Of a stretch of 64,000 nt of DNA, positions 24,206-27,062 are shown piece by piece. Position numbers and translations under genes: made by a program. The notes beneath the pieces were generated by a model. That model worked only from the letters and a program-made list of their open reading frames with translations. It searched no databases and was not told the origin of the DNA. Position 1 is the stretch's first letter, and every line of letters begins with the position of its first letter. The DNA is from an uncultured Gammaproteobacteria bacterium. Lineage in GTDB: Bacteria; Pseudomonadota; Gammaproteobacteria; CAWCPV01. The stretch is taken from assembly GCA_963797555.1 (NCBI GenBank), contig CAWCPV010000014.1, positions 128,001 through 192,000 of the forward strand, written 5' to 3'.

Positions 24206-24439
24206 CTACGGTGTTGTTCGGCGGCGCCGGCGAGATCTTTCTGCGACGAGCACCAAAACCCCGCCCAGAAACGCAAGTGCTTGCGTGCCCGCCCCCACAT
24301 CTATCTCCGGAGCCTCTATTTTCTTGACATGCCCAGGCGCACAGGCGGGAGCGCACAAGCTGATCTCGCTCCTAGCAAATGCAGGCGACGCCGAACTGAT
24401 CGCAAGAACTGCTGCGAGAAGCGTCAGTTGGATTTTCAT
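24206..24439 (-). CDS. VPEID-CTERM sorting domain-containing small protein
   Basis: Signal peptide, APEIDVG motif, TM helix and ERSRRRRR tail; AAGGAG RBS. Confidence 0.88.
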   Translation of the reverse strand: MKIQLTLLAAVLAISSASPAFARSEISLCAPACAPGHVKKIEAPEIDVGAGTQALAFLGGVLVLVAERSRRRRRTTP

Positions 24440-24730
24440 CGTGCCCTCCTTATCCCTGAGTGCAAATAACGACGCGAATTGCCCGTCCCGGCATATCCGT
24501 ACGCGGATATCACGAACTAAGTTCGTATCTATAGACCTCTGCGGTGCCTTTGTCAAGGAGGACGTTCGCACGGCCTGTTCAAGGTTACCAGCGCGATCTT
24601 CAAAGTCTCCGTCTCGGTCACCCCCACGGCTTTTGTGCTGCGCTAGCGAGCCCGCTCCGTTCAGACGGGGTCGGTAATCTCCCACCTAACGATCATTGCG
24701 TCTGGCGCCACCCCAGAGGATGAAAGAAGC

Positions 24731-24935
24731 TGTGGGGTGGGAGACGGCGGGAAGAGGTCGCGCAAGTTTTTGGCGGCTCGACCCCGCAACCTAACGTGAC
24801 CCGCCGGACCGACTCGTACCCCGGATTGCTTCCCTACAGAGCGCACGTTAAACAGGCCGTCGGCGGCTTGCCGCCTTCAGGCTCACTCGGTCCGGCACCC
24901 GCCGTCTCCCATCTCTTGAGTGTATTGCGACGGGA
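24731..24935 (+). ncRNA. Putative bridge/seek RNA in the IS110 5' non-coding end
   Basis: Closing stem GGGAGACGGCGGG (about 24739-24751) / CCCGCCGTCTCCC (24898-24910); internal segments match the reconstructed target (24818-24829) and donor junction (24844-24856). Confidence 0.65.
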
Positions 24936-24941
24936 GACGAC

Positions 24942-26130
24942 ATGGAACTGGTAGCGATCTTCAAGCGTCTCATCGGTCTGGATGTGCATCAGGGGCAAGT
25001 GACCGCCTGTGCCATCCTTGAGGAGGCCGACGGCCAAGTCTACATCGAGCAACGCCAATTCGGTGCCTTCAAGAAAGACCGCCGGGCGTTCGCGGAGTGG
25101 TGCGCGGGATTTCGCCCGGAGGAGGTGGTCATGGAGAGCACCGGCATTTACTGGAAAAGTCCTTACGCAGCCCTAGAAGGCGCACGGCATCCAAGCCAAG
25201 GTGGTCAACGCCCGCCACGTCAAGCAGGTCCCGGGACGCAAGACCGACATCGGCGATGCCCAGTGGCTGGCCATGTTGGCTCGCGCCGCTCTGTTGCGCG
25301 CCTCCTTCGTGCCGAAGGCCAAACTGCGCGAGCTGCGCCTGATCGCCCGGCAGCGACAGAAGCTCGTGGGCTTGGCTGCCTCGGAGAAGAACCGGCTGCA
25401 CAAGGTGCTCACCGATGGTGGCATCCGCCTGGGGGTGGTGGTGAGCGATATCCACGGCCAGTCGGCCCGTGCCATGCTGAAAGCCCTCATCCAGGGGGCT
25501 GCTGCCCACGAGGTCCTCCCCCTGGCCAGCCGCCGGCTGAAGGCGAGCCGCGAGGAGCTGCTCGATGCCCTGCAGGGGGACCTGACCGAGTCTCATCGCT
25601 TCGTCCTCGATGAATTGATGCGCCACATCGAGGAACTCGAAGCCCGCATCGCCCGCTTCGATGCTCGCTTGCTCGAAGGCCTGAAGGAGGAGGCCAACAG
25701 CCTGCTGTTGTTGCAGACCCTACCAGGGGTCAATGTCATCGGTGCCGCCATGCTGCTGGTGGAAATCGGTAGCGACATGAGCGCCTTCGGTCATGCCGAG
25801 CGGCTCGCTTCCTGGGTGGGTATCTGCCCCGGCAACCACGAGTCGGCCGGCAAGCGCCAATCGGGGCGCACCCGCAAGGGCAACCCCTATGTGCGTCGTC
25901 TGCTGTGCGAGTTCGCCCATGCCGCAAGCCGTACCCGCTTGCGCCGCGGCCGCAAACGAGCCATCATCGCTCTGGCCCACAAGATGTTGCGTATCATCTT
26001 CTGCATGCTCTCGCGCGGCCAACACTACCGGGATTCGGCCACTGACTATGAAGCCCTATTTGTGAAACGCAACGCCCCACGCTGGATCAAGGCCCTCAGC
26101 CGCTACGGCTTCCTGCCAGCCGCCGCCTGA
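24942..26130 (+). CDS. IS110-family DEDD recombinase; frameshift near 25185
   Basis: GLDVH, MESTG.YW, KTD..DA (DEDD RuvC-like); C-terminal GICPGNHESAGK serine motif. Confidence 0.9.
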
Positions 26131-26218
26131 ACCCTTCACCCCCTCCTCCTATGGCCCTCATCGGCCAGGCTCCGTCACGCCCAAAAACCGGCTTCTTTCA
26201 CGTTAAAGATTGCCTTGA

Positions 26219-26246
26219 CTGGCCGGCCCTGGCCGATTCCGGTCAC
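26219..26246 (-). repeat. dif-like site F (CGGCCA core on minus strand)
   Basis: CTGGCCGGCCC-TGGCCG-ATTCCGGTCAC; the TGGCCG.TTCCGGTCACTGGA stretch is 20/21 identical to the 47813 site. Confidence 0.55.
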
Positions 26247-26513
26247 TGGACCCAGTAACTGCAGTGAAGCGATTCCCGACGCGCGCGCGTAAGGTATGCC
26301 GTAGAGGAGACGCAAGGGAGGCCAGGCGCGGGCCAGAGGGCGGTGCCGTGGCCGTGGAGGCATCACCCGCGGGAAGCGCGCAGTACGCGGATGGTGTCCT
26401 TTCCGCGGTTTACGGGGAAGCTGGTACTCGTCCTCGACGTGAGGCGGCGGCACCGTGTCGCCGGCCGGACCGGCCGGGGGGGAGGGAAGAATGGTGATCA
26501 GGGCATCGAAGTC

Positions 26514-27062
26514 TCAGCGGCCGTAGGTTGCGGTCAGCGTCGCCTTGGCCAGGGCGTTCGAATTCAGATAGAAACCCACCATCGCGCCGCTGGCATCCTC
26601 TTTAAGAGGCAGTTGATCCACCTTCAATGCATAGACGGTGAAGATATACCGGTGAGGCTTGTCGCCCGCCGGCGGACAGGGCCCCCCGTAACCGTGTTGA
26701 CCGTAGTCGGTCCTGCTTTGCACCGACCCTTTGGGGGCCAACCCGCTCTCCGGCCTGCCCGCATCGGCGGGGAGCATATTCGCGGAAGGCGGGATATTGA
26801 AGACCAGCCAGTGCCACCAGCCGCTGCCCGTCGGTGCGTCGGGATCATAGACCGTCACCGCGAAGCTCTTGGTCTCCTTAGGGGCGTTCTGCCAGTGCAG
26901 CTCCGGCGAGACGTTGCCACCCGTGCAGCCGAAACCGGAGAAAACCTGCTCCATCCCGACCGTGCCCTTGTTTTTGACCACGGGGCTGGTAATTTGAAAC
27001 TCGGCCGCAGATAACTGCCCCGCCATCAGGACGATTACCGCCGCCAACCAGAGTCGAGTCAT
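26514..27062 (-). CDS. YbhB/YbcL family (PEBP, Raf kinase inhibitor-like) periplasmic protein
   Basis: GCTGGNVSP, YDPDAPTGSGWWHW, GPCPP, HRYIFTVYAL; signal peptide. Confidence 0.92.
   Translation of the reverse strand: MTRLWLAAVIVLMAGQLSAAEFQITSPVVKNKGTVGMEQVFSGFGCTGGNVSPELHWQNAPKETKSFAVTVYDPDAPTGSGWWHWLVFNIPPSANMLPADAGRPESGLAPKGSVQSRTDYGQHGYGGPCPPAGDKPHRYIFTVYALKVDQLPLKEDASGAMVGFYLNSNALAKATLTATYGR

What the first reader, a model, noticed from the sequence alone, without database searches (positions are those of the whole stretch)
24710..26214. IS110 element whose 5' non-coding end spells out both its target and its donor junction (bridge-RNA guides), with an unusual IR plus 5'-NCR layout
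Seen: removing the element at the duplicated AGA core reconstructs target ACCCC-AGA-TTGC and circle junction CACGTTAA-AGA-GG. The upstream non-coding region contains ACCCC-GGA-TTGC (24818-24829, 11/12) and CACGTTAA-ACA-GG (24844-24856, 12/13), each mismatched only in the core. It also holds reverse-complement segments GCAACCT (24786-24792, ~target) and TAACGTGA (24792-24799, donor), all inside a 13-bp closing stem. Known: IS110/IS1111 recombinases use bridge/seek RNAs with guides to both strands of target and donor; subterminal IRs usually go with a downstream NCR (IS1111). Inference: here IRs coexist with an upstream NCR, guides span the core contiguously, and the guide order is interleaved (target', donor', target, donor). 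This may be a distinct bridge-RNA architecture.
Basis: partly seen in the sequence, partly recalled or inferred. Interest (0 to 1): 0.8.

Follow-up and report, generated by a model that had tools for sequence, protein, structure and literature searches.

The report
IS110 insertion sequence with bridge RNA

Summary
The element is an IS110-family insertion sequence, but its true limits are window 24687-26205 (TA core at both junctions), not 24715-26209. Other copies in the same genome share sequence from 24685 on, and an empty site in an ISL3 transposase gene fixes the junctions. ACCCCGGATTGC (24818-24829) is near-invariant in relatives with unrelated flanks, so it is not a guide. Two guides are real. 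AACC-TA-A (24788-24794) covaries with the left flank: -1 matches in 123 of 126 insertions, -2 in 102 of 126. CACGT-TA-A (24844-24851) covaries with the right end: -1 in 120 of 123, -2 to -4 in 123 of 123. The closing stem and two inner helices show compensatory changes. The donor module is nested inside the target module. The 3' sides of both loops are only 1 and 4 nt, and right flanks are unconstrained beyond +1/+2. I found no right-side guides. The 10-bp inverted repeat is real. This copy's transposase gene carries a frameshift and a 33-bp deletion. Verdict: known kind, modestly variant architecture; no RNA data.

The parts
24687..24688 (+). Left copy of the TA core. With the following A it reads TAA, as at the right junction. 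The left target half ACC lies at 24684-86.
   Evidence: Empty site versus filled site. Left-end alignment of 12 copies. Five relatives whose right end is followed by TA then a non-A base.
24689..26203 (+). Body of the IS110-family element. It is 1517 bp counting one TA. Full-length sister copies are 34 bp longer.
24689..24701 (+). Conserved left terminus (right-donor side), ACG-NN-CAT-KG-type. The first three bases, ACG, match the bases that follow the core in the target guide.
   Evidence: Alignment A1. RD+3 matches the guide in 132 of 132 insertions, including 3 A:A cases.
24708..24740 (+). Possible 5' hairpin, CCACCCCA / TGGGGTGG. It is weakly supported. Its C-run is invariant while the G-run is not.
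   Evidence: Helix 1: 77% of cells paired, 1 of 8 pairs with a double change.
24721..24730 (+). Left arm of the inverted repeat (TGAAAGAAGC). It starts 32 nt inside the left end, in the loop of the possible hairpin.
   Evidence: Antisense 6-mer match to the right end in 27-28 of 29 families. Permutation 0 of 10000.
24738..24751 (+). P1 5' strand, the closing stem of the RNA. It pairs with 24898-24911.
   Evidence: (7 of 9 counted pairs change on both sides).
24756..24778 (+). P2 hairpin with a U-rich loop. It has many G-U pairs, which argues for a + strand RNA.
24788..24796 (+). Left target guide: AACC (positions -4 to -1), TA core (24792-93), then ACG. [quoted passage not shown]
   Evidence: MI scan. 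Permutations 0 of 10000. Matches at -1 in 123 of 126, -2 in 102 of 126, -3 in 56 of 126, -4 in 32 of 126.
24803..24812 (+). P3 5' strand. It pairs with 24887-24896 and encloses the donor module.
   Evidence: (4 of 9 pairs change on both sides).
24818..24829 (+). It is probably a structural or protein-contact element.
   Evidence: invariant or at least 90% conserved columns. (61 of 65 identical).
24844..24851 (+). Left donor guide: CACGT (positions -5 to -1), TA core (24849-50), then A. It has the same sense as the right end.
   Evidence: Matches at -1 in 120 of 123; -2, -3 and -4 in 123 of 123; -5 in 91 of 123.
24856..24882 (+). P6 stem-loop of the donor module.
   Evidence: (6 of 10 pairs change on both sides).
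24883..24897 (+). 3' sides of the two loops. TCAC (24883-86) precedes the P3 3' strand (24887-96). A single A (24897) precedes the P1 3' strand. Both are too short for IS621-type right guides.
24898..24911 (+). P1 3' strand.
24942..26130 (+). DEDD / Transposase_20 recombinase gene, broken in this copy. It carries an extra A at 25177-78 (frameshift) and an in-frame 33-bp deletion after 25939.
26191..26200 (+). Right arm of the inverted repeat (GCTTCTTTCA).
26199..26205 (+). Right terminus CACGT (left-donor side) plus the right copy of the TA core. The flank starts at 26206 (AAG...).

Best explanation
Window 24687-26205 is a defective copy of an IS110-group insertion sequence.

Its 5' non-coding region encodes a bridge-type guide RNA of about 175 nt on the + strand. 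The RNA is closed by stem P1 (24738-51 with 24898-911).

One single-stranded segment (24788-94, AACC-TA-A) has the sense of the target's left half plus core. It would pair with the target's bottom strand. A second segment (24844-51, CACGT-TA-A) has the sense of the element's own right end plus core. [quoted passage not shown]

The DEDD/Ser recombinase then exchanges strands at the TA. The resulting insertions read xCC|TA|element|TA|A.. and carry no longer duplication.

Shown here:
- the boundaries and the core;
- the helices;
- covariation of both guides with the left flank and with the right end.

Inferred:
- that the region is transcribed;
- which DNA strand each guide pairs with;
- the chemistry, taken from IS621.

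In this clade the donor module sits inside the target module, and only the two 5'-side guides are visible. Target choice therefore rests on about 5-6 bp.

This copy cannot make its own recombinase. The only copy found with an intact 406-aa reading frame has lost most of its RNA region, so any mobility would need supply in trans.
For: Family:
- Pfam DEDD_Tnp_IS110 and Transposase_20 on the two reading-frame pieces.
- The intact 406-aa relative scores 290.8 bits against NCBIfam NF033542, 'IS110 family RNA-guided transposase', cutoff 140.
- Weak matches to the solved ISCro4 and IS621 transposases. Only the printed ISCro4 alignment was read: acidic residues of three conserved N-terminal motifs and a C-terminal ES align; I did not map them to the named catalytic positions.

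Boundaries:
-.

Structure:
- 92.6% of cells paired, against 34.6-44.2% when the partners are slid.
- 20 pairs change on both sides, 0 of 500 shuffles reach that.
- G-U pairs favour the + strand.

Guides:
- The top mutual-information signals are the diagonals LT-1/-2/-3 with 24791/90/89, and LD-1/-2 with 24848/47.
- Family-level permutations: 0 of 10000, with 26 and 29 families.
- Independent metagenome replicate: LT-1 in 59 of 61, LT-2 in 56 of 61, LD-1 in 54 of 55, LD-2 to -4 in 55 of 55, 0 of 10000.
- Guide letters vary and are tracked by the DNA: C or T at LT-1; T, C or G at LD-1; G or A at LD-2.

Published scheme:
- The 5' side of each IS621 loop pairs with the bottom strand and includes the core (passages of PMC11208160).
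Against: - No RNA evidence was available. No RNA run was listed.
- No sigma-70-like promoter was found in the linear element or across the modelled end-to-end junction.
- No Rfam family matches the region.
- The right-end detector was a degenerate pattern, so unusual right ends were not scored. 7 of 72 genome-set loci and 6 of 65 scored metagenome loci had none.
- LT-3 matches in only 56 of 126 and LT-4 is at chance (32 of 126), so the target guide is very short.
- Related sequences are not independent, which inflates permutation significance.
- One diverged copy in the same genome (L008) has a donor guide (CACAT) that does not match its own right end (CACGC).
Confidence: 0.85

Rival explanations
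1. The element runs from 24715/24718 to 26209 with an AGA core. ACCCCGGATTGC and GCAACCT guide the target. CACGTTAA-ACA-GG and TAACGTGA guide the donor, in interleaved order.
For: The quoted strings are present. In this one copy the right flank happens to start ..AG ATTGC.
Against: - 12 of 12 sister copies with a left end extend about 30 bp further left, with unrelated flanks.
- The empty site is ..CC TAA AG...
- 0 of 6 other right flanks carry ATTGC.
- ACCCCGGATTGC is near-invariant whatever the flanks.
- TAACGTGA does not follow changes of the right end.
Confidence: 0.02
2. The internal copies of end-like sequence are DNA sites bound by the recombinase, not RNA guides. The conserved helices would then serve something else, such as translation control of the recombinase gene.
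For: - No RNA data and no promoter were found.
- The 10-bp inverted repeat looks like a protein or DNA-level site.
- Much of the region is sequence-invariant.
Against: - Segment 24788-91 tracks the host flank, which a site inside the element has no reason to do.
- The helices show compensatory changes with G-U pairs on the + strand.
- The protein family is one shown experimentally to use such RNAs (PMC11208160 and PMC11187229: passages and sections read).
Confidence: 0.06
3. The RNA is a full four-guide bridge RNA of the IS621 type. Its right target and right donor guides exist but were missed, for example because they are very short, use wobble pairs, or lie in the P2 loop or the 3' non-coding end.
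For: - RT+1 is A in 110 of 113 insertions.
- RT+2 shows a weak link to the base after the core in the donor guide: A in 49 of 104, G in 4 of 6, T in 2 of 3.
- The left terminus is conserved, so a constant right donor guide could not be seen by covariation.
Against: - In the covariation-supported fold the 3' sides of the loops are 1 nt and 4 nt.
- No antisense 6-mer to core plus left terminus recurs across families except through the palindrome of CACGT-type ends.
- No RT signal appears among the 45 top pairs of the mutual-information scan with a sense or antisense match above 0.33.
- RT+3 and RT+4 are at chance.
Confidence: 0.3

Closest known systems
IS621 and its bridge RNA (IS110 group). Sources: PMC11208160 and PMC11208158, passages and named sections read.
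   Same: - DEDD plus Ser recombinase.
- The long non-coding region lies upstream of the gene.
- A structured RNA of about 175 nt.
- The 5'-side guides have the sense of left target plus core and of left donor plus core.
- A dinucleotide core is shared by target and donor.
- Target guide comes before donor guide.
   Different: - IS621 has two tandem modules, each made of stem, left guide, stem-loop and right guide, plus handshake bases.
- Here the donor module is nested inside the target module.
- No right guides were found.
- The core is TA rather than CT.
- The target guide is effectively 2-3 nt plus the core.
- The recombinase has 406 aa, against the 328-aa IS621 chain in the PDB, and is only weakly similar (E 8.6e-08).
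ISEc21 seekRNA (IS110 type). Source: PMC11187229, abstract and sections 6 and 12 read.
   Same: - The upstream non-coding region determines the target.
- Insertion occurs without duplication.
- Some targets lie inside other insertion sequences' transposase genes. Here copy L002 sits in an ISL3 gene.
   Different: - The ISEc21 RNA carries matches to both strands of a longer target.
- Here only a sense-strand left-half match is seen.
- Insertion sites are diverse.
IS1111 group (for example IS4321/IS5075, named from the papers' reference lists). Features as described in PMC11187229 section 6 and PMC11208160 section 12.
   Same: A subterminal inverted repeat within the 7-17 bp range. Here it is 10 bp.
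   Different: - In IS1111 the guide RNA lies downstream of the gene and the recombinase has 330-350 aa.
- Here the guides lie upstream, the 3' non-coding end is only 73 nt, the recombinase has 406 aa, and the left repeat arm starts 32 nt inside the end.

Membership tests
IS110 family (DEDD recombinase insertion sequences) | N-terminal RuvC-like DEDD domain (PF01548) | tested here: met
   E 4.9e-08 on piece 1 and 1.7e-13 on piece 2. In one search acidic residues of three conserved N-terminal motifs align between relative L021 and ISCro4.
IS110 family (DEDD recombinase insertion sequences) | C-terminal Transposase_20 domain with the G--P----S motif | tested here: met
   PF02371, E 1.6e-22. GICPGNHESAGK is present in the translation. 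Its ES aligns with the ES of ISCro4 for relative L021.
IS110 family (DEDD recombinase insertion sequences) | Curated whole-protein model | tested here: met
   NF033542: 290.8 bits against a cutoff of 140, for the intact relative L021. The window's own gene was not scored whole because it is frameshifted.
IS110 family (DEDD recombinase insertion sequences) | Site-directed insertion with a short shared core and no longer duplication | tested here: met
   Comparison of empty and filled site.
IS110 family (DEDD recombinase insertion sequences) | Intact recombinase gene in this copy | tested here: not met
   Extra A at 25177-78 in 5 of 7 copies, including this one. 33-bp deletion in this copy.
IS621-type bridge RNA | Conserved structured RNA in the left end | tested here: met
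   helices P1, P3 and P6 carry 7, 4 and 6 pairs changed on both sides.
IS621-type bridge RNA | Left target guide covaries with the left flank | tested here: met
IS621-type bridge RNA | Left donor guide covaries with the right end of the element | tested here: met
IS621-type bridge RNA | Right target guide on the 3' side of the target loop, with a specified right target half | tested here: not met
   The 3' side is 1 nt. RT is unconstrained beyond +1/+2 in 113 insertions.
IS621-type bridge RNA | Right donor guide on the 3' side of the donor loop | tested here: inconclusive
   The 3' side is 4 nt and does not complement core plus left terminus. The left terminus is too conserved for a covariation test.
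IS621-type bridge RNA | Two tandem modules joined by a linker | tested here: not met
   The fold is nested: P1[P2, guide, P3[.., guide, P6]]. Tandem modules in IS621 are described.
IS621-type bridge RNA | The RNA is made and binds the recombinase | not testable with these tools
   No RNA holder was listed.
IS1111 group | Subterminal inverted repeats of 7-17 bp | tested here: met
   10 bp, 24721-30 with 26191-200. The left arm is unusually far inside the end.
IS1111 group | Guide RNA in a long downstream non-coding region; recombinase of 330-350 aa | tested here: not met
   The guides lie upstream. The downstream region is 73 nt. The recombinase has 406 aa.

The most novel reading that the evidence does not exclude
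This clade uses a minimal two-guide bridge RNA.

Each guide is a bottom-strand binder that runs across the core into the partner's right side. The first covers left target, TA and ACG of the left terminus. The second covers left donor, TA and A(A) of the right flank. Each guide therefore matches a product junction better than its substrate.

There are no right target or right donor guides. The donor module is nested in the target module. A 10-bp repeat links an internal left-end loop to the right end.

This would amount to a handshake on the opposite strand from IS621, and a natural RNA-guided recombinase with only a 5-6 bp target.
Probability: 0.3. Interest if true: 0.6.

Novelty: new variant of a known kind. 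Interest (0 to 1): 0.35.

Why it matters
The general mechanism, RNA-guided recombination by IS110 elements, has been known since 2024. The element itself is therefore ordinary.

What may be useful is the corrected anatomy of this clade:
- It has a nested fold supported by covariation.
- It shows only left-side guides.
- It has a very short target, which fits its many scattered copies (27 loci from one Methylomarinum genome record).

If the two-guide reading holds, it gives a natural example of half-site recognition. That topic is now discussed for IS621 off-target activity (abstract of 10.64898/2026.08.31.748434). It would also give a small scaffold for asking which guide contacts are dispensable.

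Tried and rejected
1. Rfam search of 24300-26600 at E up to 10. It gave 5 weak matches, all E 1.9 or more and none inside 24687-24941. No family was found.

2. Public RNA runs. No RNA holder was listed.

3. Sigma-70 scan. 0 sites in 24500-26400. No conserved promoter across modelled right-end/left-end junctions in 29 families; only 7 families gave scattered 8-of-12 hits at differing places.

4. Empty site for the window copy. The left flank was found in 0 of 40 other genomes searched, all of which are only same-class relatives.

5. Pairing of segment 24792-98 with 24844-50 as an RNA helix. Rejected, because CACAT, CACGC and ATGT variants of the second segment are not compensated in the first.

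6. TAACGTGA as an antisense donor guide. Rejected: only 13-14 of 29 families show the match, and these are the CACGT-type ends, where the junction is palindromic.

7. P2-loop CGCAA as antisense to the left terminus TTGCG. Seen in only 4 of 29 families, with no covariation.

8. The 5' hairpin 24708-40. It is weak: 77% paired.

9. The variable 4-nt 3' side (24883-86) as a guide. No consistent match to any flank was seen by eye, and the best mutual-information value (LT-2, 0.59) had a same-base fraction of only 0.48.

10. Naming the element. The best plasmid hit was an unannotated 66.5% match; the rest were 43.5% or less and labelled only 'IS110 family transposase'.

11. Literature. The listings, and the passages read, showed no description of a nested two-guide bridge RNA. 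Supplementary tables are closed, and those of PMC11208160 may well cover this clade.

Full report
WHAT IS AT THE COORDINATES

The region holds two overlapping reading-frame pieces, 24942-25613 and 25201-26130. They carry the DEDD_Tnp_IS110 and Transposase_20 domains. It is therefore an IS110-family element with a broken recombinase gene.

TRUE BOUNDARIES

A search of the window's own genome found 36 matching places. The long copies start at query positions 31-37 and end at 1557-1559. These correspond to about window 24680-24686 and 26206-26208.

In the end alignment, 12 of 12 copies that keep a left end share ..CTAACG.. followed by the whole stretch through 24710-24717. Their upstream DNA is unrelated. 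7 copies keep a right end, which finishes CACG(T/C)TAA.

Copy L002 interrupts an ISL3-family transposase gene (Pfam). Many uninterrupted copies of that gene exist in the genome. Of 9 printed, 5 read ..CATCTGCC TAA AGCCACGG.. at the insertion point. The other 4 belong to a diverged subtype that lacks the TAA.

The filled site reads ..CTGCC TAA CGATC ... CACGT TAA AGCC... The element therefore sits between two copies of TA(A). The left copy is at 24687-88 and the right copy at 26204-05.

Five relatives have TA followed by a non-A base at the right junction. The shared core is therefore TA, with A usual at +1.

The ATTGC half is a coincidence of this one flank, seen in 0 of 6 other right flanks.

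RELATIVES

A scan of genome records gave 79 loci at 72-81% protein identity. They include 8 loci from one Aromatoleum genome, 27 from one Methylomarinum genome record and 6 from one Nitrosomonas assembly. A scan of metagenome contigs gave 80 more. The non-coding regions align from the TA onward.

THE TWO GUIDES

In the table, the five bases before TAA in segment b (window 24844-48) follow the five bases before the terminal TA of each element:
- CACGT with CACGT;
- CACAT with CACAT;
- CACGC with CACGC;
- (A)ATGT with (C)ATGT.

The bases before TAA in segment a (window 24788-91) follow the left flank. Examples are GC, CC, ATC, TTC, GGT, GCT, TGT, ACCC and GCC.

In a mutual-information scan of every non-coding column against every flank position, five of the ten highest-scoring pairs are these sense-strand diagonals. 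The other five have low same- or complement-base fractions.

Shuffling guides among families gave 0 of 10000 shuffles as good as observed:
- left target: 26 families, 2.63 of 4 matches against 1.58 when shuffled;
- left donor: 29 families, 4.81 of 5 against 4.01.

The metagenome set replicated this:

| Position | Matches |
|---|---|
| LT-1 | 59 of 61 |
| LT-2 | 56 of 61 |
| LT-3 | 28 of 61 |
| LT-4 | 14 of 61 |
| LD-1 | 54 of 55 |
| LD-2 to LD-4 | 55 of 55 |
| LD-5 | 49 of 55 |

Pooled over both sets:

| Position | Matches |
|---|---|
| LT-1 | 123 of 126 |
| LT-2 | 102 of 126 |
| LT-3 | 56 of 126 |
| LT-4 | 32 of 126 |
| LD-1 | 120 of 123 |
| LD-2 to LD-4 | 123 of 123 |

Caveats:
- Right ends were located with a degenerate pattern. 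7 of 72 genome-set loci and 6 of 65 scored metagenome loci had no scored right end.
- 13 metagenome loci with fewer than 275 nt upstream were left out, and one more (L110) gave no alignable non-coding region.
- Related sequences are not independent.

WHAT IS NOT A GUIDE

ACCCCGGATTGC (24818-29). All 12 positions are invariant or at least 90% conserved in 32 non-coding regions with unrelated flanks. The string is identical in 61 of 65 metagenome copies. It is one of three conserved ACCCC(G) motifs; the others are near 24709 and 24781.

TAACGTGA. It complements the right end only where that end is CACGT, because the junction is then a palindrome. The antisense match is present in 13-14 of 29 families and does not follow CACAT, CACGC or CATGT ends.

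The ACG after the core in segment a. It equals the first three bases of the left terminus in 130-132 of 132 insertions. The three insertions whose terminus begins ACA have ACA in the guide as well (L163, L167, L172). This is one or two evolutionary events, so it is only suggestive.

STRUCTURE

RNAalifold on 32 sequences and pair counts support three helices:
- P1, 24738-51 with 24898-911: 7 of 9 counted pairs change on both sides.
- P3, 24803-12 with 24887-96: 4 of 9.
- P6, 24856-67 with 24870-82: 6 of 10.

Overall, 92.6% of cells are paired, against 34.6-44.2% when the partners are slid. Many G-U pairs favour a + strand RNA.

The target guide lies in the loop between P1/P2 and P3. The donor guide lies in the loop inside P3, before P6. 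The donor module is thus nested in the target module. IS621 instead has two tandem modules, each with a left and a right guide.

The 3' sides of the two loops are one base (24897) and four bases (24883-86).

THE RIGHT HALF OF THE TARGET

Among 113 unique insertions, RT+1 is A in 110. RT+2 is A in 49 of the 104 whose donor guide has A there, G in 4 of 6 with G, and T in 2 of 3 with T. RT+3 and RT+4 are at chance.

I found no segment that complements core plus right flank or core plus left terminus. The effective target is therefore about xYY-TA-A. This fits the scattered insertion sites and the high copy numbers.

Whether right-side guides are truly absent is the main open point.

THE INVERTED REPEAT

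TGAAAGAAGC (24721-30) and GCTTCTTTCA (26191-200) are complementary. The core TGAAAG recurs in 28 of 29 families. The five positions after TGAAA match more often than in shuffles: 3.59 against 2.93, 0 of 10000. The clearest change is GAAATG at both ends in the two Methylomarinum-type families (L073, L075).

Its role is unknown. It could be a protein site, a DNA hairpin in a single-stranded circle, or an RNA-loop contact.

By published descriptions, such repeats go with IS1111-type elements. IS110-type elements have repeats that are absent, short or imperfect, or of 2-3 bp, with some exceptions noted. The combination seen here is unusual but not unheard of.

STATE OF THIS COPY

Compared with sister copy L002, the non-coding region is identical. 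The gene has two substitutions and a 33-bp in-frame deletion after 25939. The 3' end lacks one base at 26144.

Five of the 7 copies that cover the site carry an extra A at window 25177-78, which splits the reading frame. The two copies without it are both on contig C3:
- One has an intact 406-aa frame but has lost the left end and most of the RNA region.
- The other has a 395-aa frame and an RNA region split by an insertion of about 2.5 kb whose product has rve and Mu-transposase domains.

In this assembly (84.6% complete) no copy pairs an intact RNA region with an intact gene. Relatives such as L021 have an uninterrupted 406-aa gene.

COMPARISON AND VERDICT

The element works like a bridge-RNA or seekRNA insertion sequence of the IS110 group. 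By protein family it is a member.

Its RNA does not meet three defining features of the IS621 architecture: tandem modules, a right target guide and a right donor guide.

It is an IS110 element whose 5' end encodes its guides, and the layout is somewhat unusual. The specific anatomy proposed is wrong.

Not tested:
- Expression: no RNA run was listed.
- Promoter: none was found.

Noticed in passing
G000 contigs C5, C10, C14 (two copies), C16 versus C3; window 25177-78: 5 of 7 copies share the same extra A that frameshifts the recombinase gene. The only intact 406-aa gene sits in a copy that has lost its left end and most of its guide-RNA region. This suggests that RNA-bearing defective copies spread with recombinase supplied in trans, or that an intact master copy is missing from this 84.6%-complete assembly.
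   Followed up: partly
L002 flanks; about 35 places in G000: An ISL3-family insertion sequence is present in roughly 35 or more copies, in at least two subtypes. Only the subtype whose gene reads CC TAA AG at one codon position carries the IS110 insertion.
   Followed up: partly
G000 C3:304053-306513 (L016/L006): An insertion of about 2.5 kb encodes a protein with rve and Mu-transposase C-terminal domains. It splits the P6 stem region of another copy of the element, with GCCGTC on both sides.
   Followed up: partly
L173:1-60: In one metagenome contig the left flank of the element is the right end of the same element type (..TTTCACAT TA ACGG..). This is a head-to-tail junction, as expected for a circle or a tandem dimer.
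   Followed up: no
L091 right flank: Two Methylomarinum copies lie head to tail, separated only by TA-AGC-TA. The GC between them matches that family's target guide.
   Followed up: no
window 24709-14, 24781-86, 24818-24: Three conserved ACCCC(G) motifs occur in the non-coding region. The first is invariant even where its supposed pairing partner varies. Their function is unknown.
   Followed up: partly
window 26233-26281: About 50 nt of the right flank recur at 85-88% identity on contigs C14 (about 400437) and C13 (about 3104). This is a small unexplained repeat.
   Followed up: no
L004 right flank; G000 C3:677483-677589, C3:814009-814114, C4:725856-725962: The right flank of copy L004 is the start of a repeat of about 107 nt. 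Its other three copies are each preceded by (A)(A/T)CC TAA A, a ready-made target motif.
   Followed up: partly
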